Origin: Escherichia coli O157:H7 | GTDB lineage: Bacteria > Pseudomonadota > Gammaproteobacteria > Enterobacterales > Enterobacteriaceae | Assembly (NCBI RefSeq): GCF_013167455.1 | Contig: NZ_CP038328.1 | Direction: 5' to 3' (one strand) | DNA length: 64,000 bases | Shown: one piece after another, positions 19,628 through 28,600 of the stretch | Layout: the number at the start of each line of letters is the position of its first letter | Numbering within the stretch: the first letter of the stretch is position 1 | Program-made: the position numbers

Positions 19628-22600
19628 TGATAATCCTCCCGCCAGAAGAATAAAACATAGCCCGGTATACAAGTGTATACCGGGCTTTTTTGATCAAAAT
19701 TCCATTTTCACCGTGAATTGCACTTCACGCGGATCGCCAATCTGATTCCCCAGATTATTTGTGGCGATGGAAGAGGTGTAATACGTTTTATCAAACAGGT
19801 TTTTGACGTTTAATTGCAGTGTGACCGGATACTGCAATTTCATTTTGTATGCGGCGAAGGCATCGGCAACGAAATAGCCTGGCAGATAATAGTCAGCCCC
19901 ATTGGTTGCCGAACGACGGCTTACGCCATGTCCACCACCGCCAAACGTCAGTGTGTTATTGCCTGGCATGTTATGAATGTCATAGGTCAGGAATAGCGAA
20001 CCGGTATGACGAGGAACATTCGGCAATGGTTTCCCTGCATAATCAGGATCTTCCAGAACCTTAGCATCGGTATAGCCGTAGCTGGCAATGATATTAATGT
20101 TTTCAGTTAATGCTCCCGCAAGGTCGACTTCTACCCCTCTTGAACGAACGCGGCCTGCCGTTTTGGCGATGGTTTCATCACCAATACTTTCGGTATACAA
20201 CACGTTACGTTTATGGATATCAAACAGCGCAATATCTGCGGTTATACCATCGAACAGCTCGAATTTTGCCCCGACTTCGTAAGCATTAGATGATTCCGGT
20301 GGAAGATCTCCGATGTAGCTGGCAATTGACGATTGCGGCATAAATGTTTGCGAATAATTAGCAAATAAGGATACCGATGGCGTCAGTTTGTAGACTAACC
20401 CCAGTTTGGGCGTCCATTGTTCATCGCGGCTGTCAGTATTGACATTAAAAGGACGGCCTTTACCCGCATACTGCGTGTAATACTGATAGCGGATCCCGGC
20501 GACGGCAATCCAGTTATCGGTCAGATAGAGCGCATCCTGTGCATAAGCTGAGTAGCTCTCCTGTTTGATCGTCTGATCACTGTCCGACGCCGAAACCGTT
20601 GTGCATTTGCTGGTATTGCCATAAACGGGGTTGTAGATATTGAAATCTTTAGCGTTTTTACAGCGAATCATATCTGTGCGCAGAAGATCATAATATTCAT
20701 ATGACACCCCACCCAGAATCTCATTATAGAACCCAGCAATATCAACATTCCCTTGCAGATCCGCACGAGTAGAATGCATACGCTGGGTAGATCCCTGAGT
20801 TGCATCAACACGCCGTGTCAGCGTTCCTGTCGTTGCATCATACGCGGTAACGCGAGCCTGATTGTCGCTGTATTTATCCTGGCTGTAGCTGTAATCAAAG
20901 CGCGCTGTCCACTGGCTATTGAGATGATATTCTGCGTTGAGTTGCGCCAGATCGGACTGACCATCTGTAATATTAAACGGTTCGTCAAAACGTATTTTTC
21001 GATCAACGTTTACGGGCTGTTTCGTCGTAAGGTCGAAAATCGTTCCACGATCGAACGGAGTTTTATAGTCCCGATGGGAATAGAGCATGGTTACTGTTGC
21101 ATTATCACCAAACCAGGTGAGTGACGGGGCAATAAATGTACTGCGCTCTTTACCGAAGTTTCGCCAGTAATCTTCATCCTGCACTTCCCCCGTCAGGCGG
21201 TATGCCAGCTGAGTGCCTTCAATGGGACCTGTGATATCAAGTTGCCCAGTGCCTCCGCCAAAACTGGAGGACGTGGCTGAGACAGAACCATGGAATGTTT
21301 TTTCCGGGCGCTTGGTCACGACGTTAATCAATCCACCAGGATCGAGAATGCCATACAGCGTGGAGGCCGGACCTTTTAGCACTTCCACACGTTCTGTGGC
21401 GGCGTTGAAACTGCGAGGAAGTACAGTTCGCAGGCCGTTGGTCATGATGGAGCCATCCCGGTTAGCACCAAAACCACGACGTACAAAGGCGTCCTGAGTT
21501 CCGCCTAATGTATTGGTCTGTACCACGTTACTGACGTTATAAAGCGCTTCATCCAGCGTCGTTGCATTCTGATTTTCCAGAACCTGATCGCTAACCGTAT
21601 TGACCACCTGCGGGATATCCAGCATCGGCATATCGGTTAATGTCGCCGTGGAAGTGCTCAGAGGTTGATAACCATCGGTCGCCTCAGTTGCGGTATTTGC
21701 ATCCGCTGTAACAGTGATTGTTTCGCCATCTTTGGTCGTTGCAGTGTCGGTTGCATGAATCATTGGTGCTGCAAAGAGCAGTGAAAAGAGCGCCCGACCT
21801 TTGATTCCTGAGAATGAAGGTGTGAACTTAGCCATTTAGTCTGTTATCCCAAAAACTCACGGATTGTCGTGAGTGAAAATTGTTTCTTGTTGCTCACTAA
21901 GCACTATCCGTTTGTTATTTTACCATCGGATATGTAATTGAGAATCATTCAATCATGCGGTAATGTAGTAGTAAATGAGAAATAATAAAAAATTGCTACA
22001 TGTGTTTTTATGAGAGGTTAATGCAATTCAATTGATGGTAATTTATTAATATTTAATGATTTTATTTTTATCTTTAAAAATATTTCACCTGTTATTTACC
22101 TTGTTTTTGTATGGCTTTTAACTTCTTGACTACTACATTTTGTGGCGTCAAACTCTCAAAAGAGAATGAGTTTTATTTTTGTTTTTCTTTGATTAAGTTG
22201 GCGTACACGTGGCACATAACGCAAAAGGGCAGGGGCTGATCCTCGACAATGTTTCTGCCGGGTATCACAAGAAAATCATTGTTGATGGTGTTTCTTTCTC
22301 CGTTCCCACAGAAAAAATGACCGTTCTGGTTGGGGCAAACGGCTGTGGAAAGTCGACGTTGCTCAGCACCATTGCACGTGTCTTGCAACCCATGGGCGGC
22401 TCAATATTGCTGGATGGTAAAGCGATTCACGAGCAACCAACGAAAGCGTTATCCCGTAGACTTGGGATCTTGCCGCAGTCGCCATTATTGCCGGAGGGCT
22501 TAACCGTTTATGAACTGGTGTCGCGTGGGCGTTTTCCCTGGCAAAATTTCATACGTCAATGGAGCGACGCCGACGAGCAGGCGGTAGAAGAGGCCCTGAA

Positions 22601-25600: not shown

Positions 25601-28600
25601 GTATCGGTGATTCAGGCAAATCAGGGAAAAATTAATGTGATGCATAGCTATCATTCGCTGGGGCGGGTATTACGCGATGCTGGTTTTCGCTTTCCGCCGC
25701 TGATTGAGAGCATTCCTGAAGGTGGGCGAATGGATGTGAGCGCGGAGCGTTTACCTGAACTGGATGCCGATTTTGTTTTTGCAACCTGGCGCGGTGACAC
25801 CGGTGGTAAACCTCAGGATGAGCTGGCAGCAATGGAAAAAGTCATGCCGGGATGGTGTCAGTTTCTGACTGCCTGTCGTTCCGGGCGTTATGTGCTGATT
25901 TCTCGTGAAGAGGCAATTTCTAACTCCTTTGCATCTCTGGGGCTGATGGCTGCGCAGATACAATCACAAATTGCGGGGCGACCTTTACCGGAGGCCAAAT
26001 GATTCAGAAAGACAAAACGCGGGTTGATATTTATGGTGAGCGTTTTCGCACTCGCGCGAGTCAGTTAACGCCTGGGTTAAGAGCTGTCGCCAGCTATATT
26101 AATGAGCATCGTGAAGTGGTACTCGATCAAACGGCGATGGAAATTGCGGCCACGTTGAACACTTCCGATGCCACAGTTATCAGGGCTATACAGGCCCTGG
26201 GGTTTGCCGGGCTGCGTGATCTGAAACGCACTCTGGAACAGTGGCTTGGTCCAGCCCTTAGTTCCAGCGAAAAGATGTCTACGACGGTGAGTAACTTGAC
26301 GAGCGATGTTAACACCGCAATCGACTTTGTTCTTGAAGGGCATTTGTATACCTGTAATGTCCTGTCAGAGCCTGAAAACCGCCACGCGCTTGCGCAAGCG
26401 GTAGCGTTGTTGGTACAGGCACGGCAAGTCGCAATTTTTGGCATTGGCGCTTCGGGTATTCTGGCGGACTATACCGCACGACTATTCAACCGCATAGGTT
26501 TGCCTGCCACGGCACTAAACCGTACGGGTATTGGCCTTGCCGAGCAACTGATTGCGCTTCAACGTGGCGATGTTCTGATCATGATGGCGCAAAAATCTGC
26601 GCACCGGGAAGGGCTGACAACGCTGCGTGAAGCGAGACGGCTGGGGATCCCTGTTATTTTGCTGACAAACGCGCTGGATTCACGTTTTAGCAAAGACGCC
26701 AGTATCGTGATTCATGTTCCGCGCGGGGATGAAAAGGGGAAAACGCCACTACATGGTACGGTATTGTTGTGCCTGGAAATGATTGTCTGGTCGGTGGCTT
26801 CCGCGGTGCCGCAGCGTGCGGTTAAAACCATTAAGCGAATTAACGATTTCCATCGGGGGCTGAAAACGGGAAGAAAGAATGGCTAATCTGACCTGAGGCC
26901 GGTAGCAACACCGGCCTCTTTTCAGGAATGTTAAATCCCTGGCTGCAGAATACGAATATTCATCTCCAGCACGTCACCTTTTACGGCTTCGCTATACGCC
27001 TTCATGTGCGGGGTTTGCAGATGCGCTTCAAGATGCGCGATGCTTTCCCACTGCTCAATCATCACGATAGAATCCGGTGCCATAGACTGGAAACTCACGC
27101 CAGCAGCGCAATCCACCATTGGCGCATAGCCGTGGCAACCTTCTTCTTTCAGTACGGTTGGAACGATTTTAGCAAACTGATCCAATACCGCCTGACGGTG
27201 ATGTTGACCAGGACGAGTACGGATTTCTGCGATTACGGTAAGCATGGTTAACTCCTTCTAAAGCCTGAGCTCTAGTTAACCAAAAATTTCCACAAGATGC
27301 TTGCGATATTCTTCAGTATAGCGGGGAACATCAGGCATTTTTATCACGTCATTAGCGATAAATGTCGGCAGCGGTTCCATACCGAGGAATTGGTTTGCTT
27401 TATGGAACGGCAGATACACACCGTCAACGCCAACGCCGTGGAAGAACTGATCTTTTTCGGTGAAGGCTTCCATTGGCGCGTTCCAGGTCAGAGAAAGCAT
27501 ATATTTTTTGCCCTGTACCAGGCCGCCGGAACCGTATTTTTTCGACGGATCTTTGCGGGTACGACCATCGCTGGCATACAGAGTCCCGTGACCTTCGGTG
27601 AATACATCATCAATGTATTTTTTCACTGTCCACGGCGCGCCCATCCACCAGCCTGGCATCTGCCAGATCACCACATCAGCCCAGAGAAAGTTTTGTACTT
27701 CCGCTTTGACATCGTAGTCGCTGTCGGCGCGAACGATGCGAACATCATGCCCGAGGTCGCGCAGTGTGCCATCCGCGACTTCGGTCAGGGTGTCGTTCAG
27801 TTGACCATTGGAGTGGGCGAATTTTTTCGCGCCGTTGATAATCAGGATGTTGCTCATTTTTTAACCTCAAGGTGAGACGTTTGCCGACTATAGTACGTCA
27901 CAGAGCGGTACGGTGAAATTAGCAAAATGTGCAAAGTCTTTTGCGAATTTAGCAAAAGTCTTACCCTTACCAGCTTACCTTCGCCTCAAATCCACCTTGT
28001 TCCGCATTCCCAAACTCAACATTCATGCCATGCAGCTTGGCGATTCGCTGGACAATCGATAGCCCAAGTCCACTGCCGGTAGCGGTTTGTCCGGGTGGGC
28101 GATAGAAGCGTTCGCCAATTCGCGCCAGTGCCTCTGGTGTCACACCGGGGCCGTTATCCCTTACGATGAAATTATCGGCATTCAGCGTGACGTCCACCAC
28201 GCTGCCCTGTGGACTGTAACGCACGGCGTTATCCAGCAAATTTCGCACCAACAAACTTAGCAATAGCGGTTGTCCGGTGCGTTTGATGCCCTGGACATTG
28301 AGTGTCAGTCGCACGTCAATTTTCGCCTGCTGCGCCGTGTGGTAAATATCCATCACCGACGATTGCAGGAGATCTTCAAGCGGGATCTCCGCGACGTCCT
28401 GAAGGTTATCCAGTGAGTCCAGCCGCGATAGCGTGAGCAGTTGATCAACCAGACGAGTAGCGCGATCGATCCCGGAATGTAATTGGAGCAGTGCTTTTTT
28501 CCGCGCCTGCGGATCATCGTCAGAGAGCTGCGCAACTTCGGTTTGCACTTTCAGCGCCGTTAACGGGCTACGAAGTTCGTGAGCTGCGTCGGAGGTAAAG

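What the first reader, a model, noticed from the sequence alone, without database searches (positions are those of the whole stretch)
19694..26886. Accessory TonB-dependent receptor plus FecBCDE-like ABC importer island between parE and ygiN
Six genes of about 7.2 kb sit between two core genes that, in the K-12 order as I recall it, are adjacent. A TonB-dependent receptor is on the minus strand; divergent from it is a translationally coupled operon (ATPase, two FecCD permeases, periplasmic binding protein, regulator) with 4-bp ATGA overlaps. The borders show no integrase, IS, tRNA or direct repeats. The architecture indicates a siderophore- or metallophore-type high-affinity uptake system, but the substrate cannot be inferred from sequence alone. 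I believe similar clusters are annotated only as 'putative iron compound' transporters in some pathogenic E. coli, and I know of no functional characterisation.
Basis: partly seen in the sequence, partly recalled or inferred. Interest (0 to 1): 0.7.

Follow-up and report, generated by a model that had tools for sequence, protein, structure and literature searches.

The report
The known E. coli fit iron-uptake operon
The six genes between parE and ygiN are real, but they are the already published "fit" iron-uptake system of E. coli (fitA, fitBCDE, fitR), so this is a known locus; only the compound it imports is still unknown.

Summary
Six intact genes at 19694-26886 lie between parE and ygiN, which are adjacent in K-12. 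The gene order matches the description, with three ATGA overlaps and no tRNA, IS, integrase or border repeats.

The interpretation "no functional characterisation" is wrong. This is the fit system of Ouyang & Isaacson (2006, 2008). Seventeen of their 18 published primers map to the expected genes with 0-2 mismatches, and the 18th maps at the fitR start with 4. The binding protein matches the solved FitE structure (PDB 3BE5/3BE6) at 296 of 297 residues. A 2026 genome paper lists a 7193-bp "fit operon", the same length as this block.

Published work shows that Fur and the RpiR-type autorepressor FitR repress fit independently. The substrate is unknown, and a 2018 paper states it is not enterobactin.

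New here:
- 1870 of 5426 complete E. coli genomes carry the full cluster, and 3268 have the K-12-type empty site.
- The same six genes fill the same parE-ygiN slot in Enterobacter and Lelliottia. They also occur, always with fitR, at other sites in about ten more genera. This looks like an old locus lost from K-12-like lineages, not a recent island.
- Cross-genus comparison of the promoter region reveals invariant candidate Fur and FitR sites.

Novelty: already known. Interest: low.

The parts
17738..19630 (+). parE (topoisomerase IV subunit B), the left flanking core gene
   Evidence: TIGR01055 scores 1248 bits. RefSeq annotation of the 100%-identical strain CDC#03-98.
19659..19686 (.). 12-bp-stem hairpin between the convergent parE and fitA genes, a likely bidirectional terminator
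   Evidence: Terminator scan finds it on both strands. K-12 has a related GCCCGG/CCGGGC hairpin at its parE-ygiN junction.
19694..21835 (-). fitA, the TonB-dependent outer-membrane receptor (713 aa). It has a signal peptide ending ...MIHA and a TonB-box-like ETITVTA at residues 38-44.
   Evidence: TIGR01783 scores above its cutoff. Plug and barrel Pfam domains are recorded for the 99%-identical cluster representative. The published fitA qPCR primers map at 21015-21034 and 21072-21091 with 0 mismatches. N-terminal sequence.
21836..22208 (.). Divergent fitA/fitB promoter region (71% A+T)
   Evidence: The published 'fit promoter' primers map at 21857-21878 and 22192-22215. The equivalent fragment bound FitR in EMSA and drove iron- and Fur-regulated lacZ in both directions (PMC2593036).
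21932..21958 (.). Conserved block ATGTAATTGAGAATCATTCAATCATGC: candidate Fur box at the fitA promoter (12 of 19 matches to the Fur consensus)
   Evidence: At least 95% conserved over 40 loci from about 12 genera, while the surrounding sequence is not. The consensus match alone is no better than in shuffled sequence. It overlaps a promoter-like site on the minus strand.
21963..21975 (-). Conserved ATGTAGTAGTAAA. Read on the minus strand it is TTTACTACTACAT, a -35-like element of PfitA and a candidate FitR operator half
   Evidence: Invariant across genera. It is the inverted copy of 22125-22137 (repeat pair I3: arms 21962-21975 and 22126-22139, 93% complementary).
22125..22137 (+). Conserved TTGACTACTACAT: a -35-like element of PfitB and a candidate FitR operator half
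   Evidence: Invariant across genera. It pairs as an inverted repeat with 21963-21975.
22160..22182 (+). Conserved block containing GAGAATGAGTTTTATTTTT (22162-22180): second Fur-box-like site, just upstream of fitB
   Evidence: 12 of 19 matches to the Fur consensus. Highly conserved across genera.
22209..23018 (+). fitB, the ABC ATPase (GTG start, 269 aa)
   Evidence: Best NCBIfam hit is FecE at 279.9 bits, below the 375 cutoff. fitB qPCR primers map at 22366-22385 and 22433-22452.
23015..23998 (+). fitC, FecCD-family permease (327 aa). Its ATGA overlaps the fitB stop.
   Evidence: fitC primers map at 23634-23653 and 23710-23729 with 2 mismatches each.
23995..25044 (+). fitD, FecCD-family permease. 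The start is at 23995 (ATGA overlap) or at 24007 as annotated by RefSeq.
   Evidence: fitD primers map at 24699-24718 and 24739-24758 with 0 mismatches.
25055..26002 (+). fitE, periplasmic binding protein (315 aa including the signal peptide)
   Evidence: 296 of 297 residues match PDB 3BE5/3BE6. fitE primers map at 25602-25625 and 25650-25673.
25999..26886 (+). fitR, RpiR/MurR-family autorepressor (HTH_6 + SIS, with a GIGASG loop)
   Evidence: Pfam HTH_6 and SIS. fitR cloning and qPCR primers map at 26056, 26102, 26166 and 26866. The published start primer matches 25999 with 4 strain differences. Repressor function is from PMC2593036.
26895..26918 (.). Hairpin GAGGCCGGT-AGCAAC-ACCGGCCTC followed by TTTT, between the convergent fitR and ygiN genes
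   Evidence: Read directly from the sequence.
26931..27245 (-). ygiN, the right flanking core gene
   Evidence: RefSeq annotation of the identical strain and of K-12.

Best explanation
The block is the chromosomal fit locus of E. coli.

Proposed mechanism:
- FitA is a TonB-energised outer-membrane gate that takes up a ferric chelate.
- FitE carries the chelate across the periplasm. FitC and FitD form the inner-membrane permease, powered by the FitB ATPase.
- fitA and fitBCDER are transcribed divergently from one A+T-rich region. Both promoters are repressed independently by Fur-Fe2+ and by FitR, an RpiR-type autorepressor. FitR's SIS domain presumably senses a phosphosugar-like effector.

Status of each step:
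- Shown in the literature: iron, Fur and FitR regulation, FitR binding to the promoter fragment, and the FitE structure. A later paper reports that enterobactin is not the substrate.
- Inferred: the transport path, from family membership.
- Inferred: a foreign siderophore as ligand. I saw no biosynthesis genes beside the cluster in the neighbourhoods examined. In Citrobacter it sits next to FoxA, and in one Erwinia near a ferrichrome/ferrioxamine binding protein.
- Inferred: a hydroxamate or mixed type is my best guess, held with low confidence.
- Inferred: the operator positions, from cross-genus conservation.

The locus is best seen as an old resident of the parE-ygiN slot, lost from K-12-like lineages, and not as a recent insertion.
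For: Identity with fit:
- 17 of the 18 primers of PMC2593036 Table 2 map to the expected gene with 0-2 mismatches. The remaining fitR start primer maps at 25999 with 4.
- The architecture matches the paper's description.
- FitE matches PDB 3BE5/3BE6 at 296 of 297 residues.
- A 7193-bp 'fit operon' is listed for strain BEN2908.

Function:
- Family assignments.
[quoted passage not shown] FitR bound the promoter fragment in EMSA.
- 'Substrate unknown, Ent is not the substrate'.

Siderophore-type ligand:
- FitA's nearest solved relatives are FetA, FoxA, FhuA and FptA. FitE's are YfiY and FhuD.
- Distant FitE homologues sit beside SIP- or FhuF-type ferric reductases.
- Erwinia-type fit operons carry a PepSY_TM protein, the family of siderophore reductases such as FoxB (family role from my own knowledge).
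- Neighbouring genes are FoxA and a ferrichrome/ferrioxamine binding protein.

Age of the locus:
- The same qseC-mdaB-ygiN-fitR...fitA-parE-yqiA-cpdA order occurs in Lelliottia and Enterobacter.
- The fit genes differ from Enterobacter at least as much as the flanks do: 64-79% against 80-87% nucleotide identity.
- Within E. coli, fit genes and flanks diverge equally: 96.5-98.1% against 96.5-98.8%.

Operators: invariant blocks across about 12 genera.
Against: - No substrate has been demonstrated, and the 2006 primary paper could not be read here.
- The Fur-box matches are only 12 of 19, no better than in shuffled A+T-rich sequence. No site falls within 3 mismatches of the consensus.
- A SIS-domain regulator is atypical for siderophore systems, so the physiological signal, and possibly the ligand class, may be unusual.
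- A 2026 paper summarises fit as 'related to Fe2+, Co2+ and Cd2+ uptake'.
- GC3 of the fit genes (0.46-0.53) is below that of the flanks (0.60-0.63).
- The GTDB scan returned no other named Escherichia species, Salmonella or Klebsiella.
- E. coli FitA is closer to Enterobacter (about 90%) than to Citrobacter (82%).

The last three points leave room for an old transfer into the slot by recombination through the flanking genes.
Confidence: 0.9

Rival explanations
1. It is a novel, uncharacterised metallophore uptake island.
For: RefSeq gives only generic product names. The PDB entry is titled 'putative iron compound-binding protein'. [quoted passage not shown]
Against: Primer mapping, the near-identical FitE structure and the published FitR and Fur work show that the locus is named and partly characterised.
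Confidence: 0.02
2. Fit does not primarily import a classical ferric siderophore. Its ligand would be another metal chelate or a sugar- or phosphate-bearing compound, with FitR sensing a phosphorylated breakdown product.
For: - FitR is HTH_6 + SIS with an intact GxGxS loop that aligns with HexR-like and NanR-like structures.
- Erwinia, Pantoea and Affinibrenneria fit operons carry two PstS-like binding proteins.
- A secondary source mentions Co and Cd.
- The substrate is unknown and is not enterobactin.
Against: - Fur repression and iron-dependent expression.
- FitA scores above the siderophore-receptor subfamily cutoff.
- FitE's solved relatives are all siderophore binders.
- Related clusters carry ferric-siderophore reductase genes.
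Confidence: 0.08
3. On origin: the cluster is a horizontally acquired islet inserted between parE and ygiN in pathogenic lineages, and K-12 shows the ancestral empty site.
For: - GC3 is lower than in the flanks.
- The cluster is patchy: 34% of E. coli genomes, and no hit for other named Escherichia species or Salmonella in the species scan.
- FitA is nearer to Enterobacter than to Citrobacter.
- It is reported as enriched in B2 and AIEC strains and in clinical isolates.
Against: - There are no mobility genes, tRNA or border repeats, and it is never on plasmids.
- The slot and gene order are identical in Enterobacter and Lelliottia.
- Divergence from Enterobacter is at least as large as for the core flanks.
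- Within E. coli, fit genes and flanks diverge equally.
- The K-12 junction keeps a parE-side hairpin related to the one in fit+ strains, and the same ygiN-proximal tail.
Confidence: 0.25

Closest known systems
E. coli fit system (fitA, fitBCDE, fitR): Ouyang & Isaacson, Infect Immun 2006 and Open Microbiol J 2008; FitE structure PDB 3BE5/3BE6 (Shi et al., Proteins 2009)
   Same: It is the same locus. Gene content, order and orientation match. The published primers map here. FitE matches at 296 of 297 residues. The block length of 7193 bp equals that reported for the fit operon of BEN2908.
   Different: There are only allelic differences from strain i484: 0-2 mismatches in 17 of the 18 primers and 4 in the fitR start primer.
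FhuA / FhuCDB ferric hydroxamate system of E. coli K-12
   Same: Same design of TonB-dependent receptor, Peripla_BP_2 binding protein, FecCD permease and ATPase. FhuA is among FitA's best characterised relatives (230 bits in NCBIfam, 154 bits against the PDB).
   Different: FitA scores far below the FhuA equivalog cutoff (230 against 803). Fit has two separate permeases where Fhu has the fused FhuB. Fit has its own RpiR-type repressor. The ligand is unknown.
FecABCDE ferric dicitrate system with FecIR
   Same: The best NCBIfam hits of FitB and FitC are FecE and FecC. Both have two separate FecCD permeases.
   Different: All Fec equivalog cutoffs are missed. FitE scores 35.6 bits against FecB (cutoff 320). 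No fecI/fecR genes lie in the cluster. Regulation is by FitR and Fur.
FoxA/FoxB-type foreign-siderophore uptake (ferrioxamine)
   Same: FoxA is among FitA's top solved relatives (169 bits). Citrobacter places FoxA next to fit. Erwinia-type fit operons encode a PepSY_TM protein of the FoxB family.
   Different: FitA is not a FoxA equivalog (166 bits against a cutoff of 1300). The E. coli operon has no PepSY_TM gene.
MurR/RpiR/HexR/NanR family of phosphosugar-responsive regulators
   Same: FitR has the HTH_6 and SIS domains and the GxGxS loop. It acts as a repressor of its own operon.
   Different: Known family members control sugar metabolism. FitR controls an iron-regulated transporter, and its effector is unknown.

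Membership tests
fit system (Ouyang & Isaacson) | Six genes: fitA divergent from fitB (ATPase), fitC, fitD (permeases), fitE (binding protein) and fitR | tested here: met
   compared with the description in PMC2593036.
fit system (Ouyang & Isaacson) | Sequence identity with the published locus | tested here: met
   17 of the 18 published primers map in the expected genes with 0-2 mismatches. The fitR start primer maps at 25999 with 4.
fit system (Ouyang & Isaacson) | FitE protein as crystallised (3BE5/3BE6) | tested here: met
   296 of 297 residues identical over the mature protein.
fit system (Ouyang & Isaacson) | Repression by Fur/iron and by FitR at the fitA-fitB intergenic region | not testable with these tools
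   The experimental evidence is in PMC2593036. Here there are only candidate sites from cross-genus conservation, and the Fur consensus match is weak.
fit system (Ouyang & Isaacson) | Mediates iron uptake | not testable with these tools
   The 2006 paper is not held.
TonB-dependent siderophore receptors (TIGR01783) | Score above the curated cutoff, plug and 22-strand barrel domains, and a TonB box | tested here: met
   373.6 bits against a cutoff of 223.5. PF07715 and PF00593 are recorded for the 99%-identical representative. ETITVTA follows the signal peptide.
FecABCDE ferric dicitrate system | Equivalog-level similarity of all components, plus FecIR surface signalling | tested here: not met
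   Scores against cutoffs: FecE 279.9/375, FecC 238.2/396, FecD 185.2/406, FecB 35.6/320, FecA 102/1100. No other ORFs are present in the block.
FhuA ferrichrome receptor and FoxA ferrioxamine receptor equivalogs | Score above the equivalog cutoff | tested here: not met
   FhuA 230.5/803 and FoxA 166.2/1300.
MurR/RpiR transcriptional regulators | N-terminal HTH_6 and C-terminal SIS domain with the phosphate-binding Gly/Ser loop | tested here: met
   Pfam HTH_6 at 1.9e-9 and SIS at 1.3e-13. GIGASG aligns with GFGASG and GVGASS of solved family members.
Genomic island (horizontally acquired) | Mobility genes, a tRNA or repeat borders, atypical composition, and absence from the same site in related genera | tested here: not met
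   No tRNA, repeats or IS. GC3 is somewhat low. The same slot is occupied in Enterobacter and Lelliottia.

The most novel reading that the evidence does not exclude
Fit may be specialised for an unconventional iron source whose uptake is gated by a phosphosugar-type signal through FitR. Candidates are a glycosylated or phosphorylated chelate, or a host- or microbiota-derived iron-sugar-phosphate complex. That would link iron piracy to carbon metabolism. The strict co-inheritance of fitR with the transporter across about 12 genera, and the PstS-like proteins in Erwinia-type operons, are compatible with this reading. They do not show it.
Probability: 0.08. Interest if true: 0.6.

Novelty: already known. 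Interest (0 to 1): 0.12.

Why it matters
As a discovery it does not matter, because the locus has been named since 2006 and one of its proteins has a solved structure.

Its residual interest is practical. fit has been reported as enriched in clinical, B2 and AIEC strains, and in an earlier study as expressed during infection. Yet its ligand and the FitR effector are unknown nearly 20 years on.

- the conserved operator blocks in the promoter region;
- the finding that the six-gene module, always including fitR, is widespread in Enterobacterales and sits beside uptake genes for foreign siderophores.

Tried and rejected
- **Fur consensus search.** Allowing up to 3 mismatches gave no hit in the window. 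The best sites in the intergenic region match 12 of 19, and 60% of shuffles reach that. So sequence alone does not establish a Fur box.
- **The 2006 primary paper.** PMC1698097 is not held. Its substrate tests could be cited only through later papers.
- **Substrate clues from gene neighbourhoods.** Close orthologues and distant FitE homologues showed reductases, extra binding proteins and FoxA. No siderophore biosynthesis genes were seen. Two of the look-ups hit contigs of 1.1-1.5 kb with almost no neighbouring genes.
- **Mobility.** Plasmid search, tRNA search and border-repeat search were all negative.
- **Fec or Fhu membership.** Rejected on curated cutoffs.
- **Structure prediction.** Not run. 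FitE is already solved, and a FitA model would not identify the ligand.
- **Phylogroup cross-tabulation.** Not possible, because the E. coli search returns counts but not per-genome lists.

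
Full report
**1.

ORF listing and NCBIfam scans show six genes between parE (17738-19630, +) and ygiN (26931-27245, -):
- a 713-aa TonB-dependent siderophore receptor on the minus strand (19694-21835). TIGR01783 scores 373.6 bits against a cutoff of 223.5;
- an ABC ATPase (22209-23018, +);
- two FecCD permeases (23015-23998 and 23995/24007-25044, +);
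- a Peripla_BP_2 binding protein (25055-26002, +);
- a regulator with HTH_6 and SIS domains (25999-26886, +).

ATGA start/stop overlaps are present at 23015, 23995 and 25999. fitD and fitE are separated by 10 nt containing GGGAG.

In K-12 MG1655, parE and ygiN are 47 bp apart. The borders carry no tRNA, no shared repeat of 8 bp or more and no transposase or integrase ORF. Each border has a G+C-rich hairpin, at 19659-19686 and 26895-26918. The window is 100% identical to E. coli strain CDC#03-98 over this region.

**2. The cluster is the published fit system**

A literature search found Ouyang & Isaacson 2008 (PMC2593036). It describes fitA (receptor), fitB (ATPase), fitC and fitD (permeases), fitE (binding protein) and fitR (HTH plus sugar-isomerase domain), which is exactly this architecture.

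Several results tie the window to that locus:
- I mapped the 18 primers of the paper's Table 2 onto the window. Seventeen land in the expected gene with 0-2 mismatches. The eighteenth, the fitR start primer, matches 25999 with four strain differences.
- The binding protein matches PDB 3BE5/3BE6 at 296 of 297 residues. That entry is cited as Ec-FitE and was published by Shi et al. 2009 (reference seen).
- A 2026 genome paper lists a 7193-bp 'fit operon' in strain BEN2908, the same length as 19694-26886.

**3. What is known about how it works**

From PMC2593036:
- The fitA-fitB intergenic region is a bidirectional promoter.
- Both directions are induced by iron chelation.
[quoted passage not shown] Fur and FitR therefore repress independently.
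- Purified FitR shifts the promoter fragment specifically.

A 2018 paper states that the substrate is unknown and is not enterobactin. A 2022 paper found fitA enriched in AIEC and B2 strains and absent from the commensals HS, IAI1 and SE11.

The transport path (FitA, then FitE, then FitCD energised by FitB) is inferred from family membership, not shown.

**4. What cannot be assigned**

FitA misses every equivalog cutoff: FhuA 230/803, FoxA 166/1300, FhuE 163/666 and FecA 102/1100. Its nearest solved relatives are FetA, FoxA, FhuA and FptA, at 132-170 bits.

Apart from itself, FitE is nearest to YfiY and FhuD. The FecE, FecC, FecD and FecB cutoffs are all missed. 'FecBCDE-like' is therefore true only at superfamily level.

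**5. Population and evolutionary context (new here)**

Among 5426 complete E. coli genomes:
- 1870 carry at least 80% of the query that spans the cluster;
- 3268 carry the K-12-type empty junction;
- about 287 carry something else. One example is strain MB06173, with IS1 plus a truncated MFS gene in the slot.

The only 'plasmid' hit is a 4.9-Mb record.

A scan of species-representative genomes found FitA orthologues of 71-99% identity in 39 loci. Mapping the neighbours shows two patterns:
- The full order qseC-mdaB-ygiN-fitR-fitE-fitD-fitC-fitB/fitA-parE-yqiA-cpdA occurs in Lelliottia and Enterobacter (L019, L021 and the metagenome-assembled L036). Partial loci consistent with it are L039, L047 and L048, where the record stops before parE. 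Other Enterobacter loci, Silvania and Huaxiibacter keep parE next to fitA.
- The same six genes, always including fitR, sit at other sites in Citrobacter, Kosakonia, Kluyvera, Yokenella, Erwinia, Pantoea and Affinibrenneria.

Two divergence comparisons bear on the age of the locus:

| Comparison | fit genes (nt identity) | flanking genes (nt identity) |
|---|---|---|
| E. coli vs Enterobacter | 64-79% | 80-87% |
| window vs E. coli SF-088 | 96.5-98.1% | 96.5-98.8% |

Together with the lack of mobility features, this favours an old resident of the slot that was deleted in K-12-like lineages.

Three observations point the other way:
- GC3 is lower than in the flanks.
- The scan returned no other named Escherichia species and no Salmonella.
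- E. coli FitA is closer to Enterobacter (about 90%) than to Citrobacter (82%).

These keep an ancient transfer through recombination in the flanking genes possible. I put that at about 0.25.

**6. Substrate clues**

No siderophore biosynthesis genes were seen next to fit in the neighbourhoods inspected.
- Citrobacter has FoxA (1403 bits, above its cutoff) beside the cluster. Erwinia piriflorinigrans has a ferrichrome/ferrioxamine-type binding protein nearby.
- Erwinia sp. JUb26, Affinibrenneria and Pantoea coffeiphila show about 3 kb of extra sequence between fitE and fitR. In Erwinia sp. JUb26 and Affinibrenneria I examined it and found three extra genes. One is a PepSY_TM protein (scanned in Erwinia). 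This is the family of inner-membrane siderophore reductases such as FoxB, which I state from my own knowledge. The other two are PstS-like binding proteins.
- Distant FitE homologues (41-47% identity) lie in tandem arrays of two to nine Peripla_BP_2 genes. Each array shares one permease/ATPase set and sits beside a SIP-, FhuF- or Suc_Fer-like protein.

All of this fits uptake of foreign ferric siderophores followed by reductive release. It does not identify the ligand. A hydroxamate or mixed-type siderophore made by other organisms is my best guess, with low confidence.

**7. Promoter anatomy (new here, inferred)**

The Fur consensus is matched only 12 of 19 at 21934 and 22162, which is no better than in shuffled sequence.

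Aligning the intergenic region from 40 loci gives a clearer picture. Four blocks are at least 95% conserved in otherwise unalignable A+T-rich DNA:

| Block | Sequence | Reading |
|---|---|---|
| 21932-21958 | ...TGTAATTGAGAATCATTCAA... | first Fur-like site |
| 21963-21975 | ATGTAGTAGTAAA | inverted copy of the block below |
| 22125-22137 | TTGACTACTACAT | -35-like element for fitB |
| 22160-22182 | ...GAGAATGAGTTTTATTTTT... | second Fur-like site |

The middle two blocks are the repeat pair I3. Each divergent promoter therefore seems to consist of TT(G/T)ACTACTACAT, then a -10 element, then a Fur-like box.

The paired TACTACTACA elements are good candidates for the FitR operator. FitR represses both directions, and the EMSA fragment (primers at 21857 and 22215) contains all four blocks. 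The 2008 paper left these sites unmapped.

FitR keeps the SIS Gly/Ser loop. Its GIGASG aligns with the equivalent loop of solved HexR-like and NanR-like regulators, so a phosphosugar-type effector is plausible but untested.

**8. Verdict**

The finding is a correct description of a known locus. Novelty: already known. Interest is low (0.12).

The remaining open questions are the ligand, the FitR effector and the exact operators. They are real but long-standing, and the new material here adds only leads. The most novel reading not excluded is an unconventional, sugar- or phosphate-linked iron source signalled through FitR. I give it a probability of about 0.08.

Noticed in passing
window 21932-21958, 21963-21975, 22125-22137, 22160-22182: Four blocks in the fitA-fitB intergenic region are invariant from E. 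coli to Erwinia and Affinibrenneria, while the rest of the region is unalignable. Two are Fur-like boxes. The other two are inverted copies of TACTACTACA at the -35 positions, which makes them candidate FitR operators.
   Followed up: partly
window 27858-27966 (between mdaB and qseC): The window has only 109 bp here. K-12 has ygiZ at this position, and strain SF-088 has an orphan Hcp (type VI secretion) gene, a hypothetical gene and ygiZ. This is a second presence/absence polymorphism about 1 kb from the fit locus.
   Followed up: no
L007 1895-3684 (E. coli MB06173): In this strain the parE-ygiN slot holds an IS1A element and a truncated MFS transporter gene. By subtraction, about 287 of 5425 genomes have neither the full fit cluster nor the K-12-type empty junction.
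   Followed up: no
L042 1600-4666; L044 1392-4512; L052: In Erwinia sp. JUb26 and Affinibrenneria salicis, three extra genes lie between fitE and fitR: a PepSY_TM membrane protein (FoxB/PiuB family; Pfam-scanned in Erwinia only) and two PstS-like (PBP_like_2) proteins. Pantoea coffeiphila has a gap of the same size at the same place, which I did not inspect.
   Followed up: partly
L012 3051-11973; L009 10001-13928; L013 10001-11932: Distant FitE homologues (about 46-47% identity) occur as tandem arrays of two to nine Peripla_BP_2 genes. Each array shares one FecCD/ATPase set and lies next to a SIP-, FhuF- or Suc_Fer-like protein. No TonB-dependent receptor was seen within 10 kb.
   Followed up: no
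window 21836-22208 compared with L006: Between the window strain and SF-088, the fitA-fitB intergenic region is the most divergent long segment (92.8% identity, against 96.5-98.1% for the fit genes). The published promoter reverse primer also has 2 mismatches here.
   Followed up: no
L018, L020 and L045 (Enterobacter wuhouensis, E. quasihormaechei, E. soli): In these species, 3.6-6.9 kb of extra DNA separates fitA from parE. The slot is therefore also variable in Enterobacter. I did not examine the inserted content.
   Followed up: no
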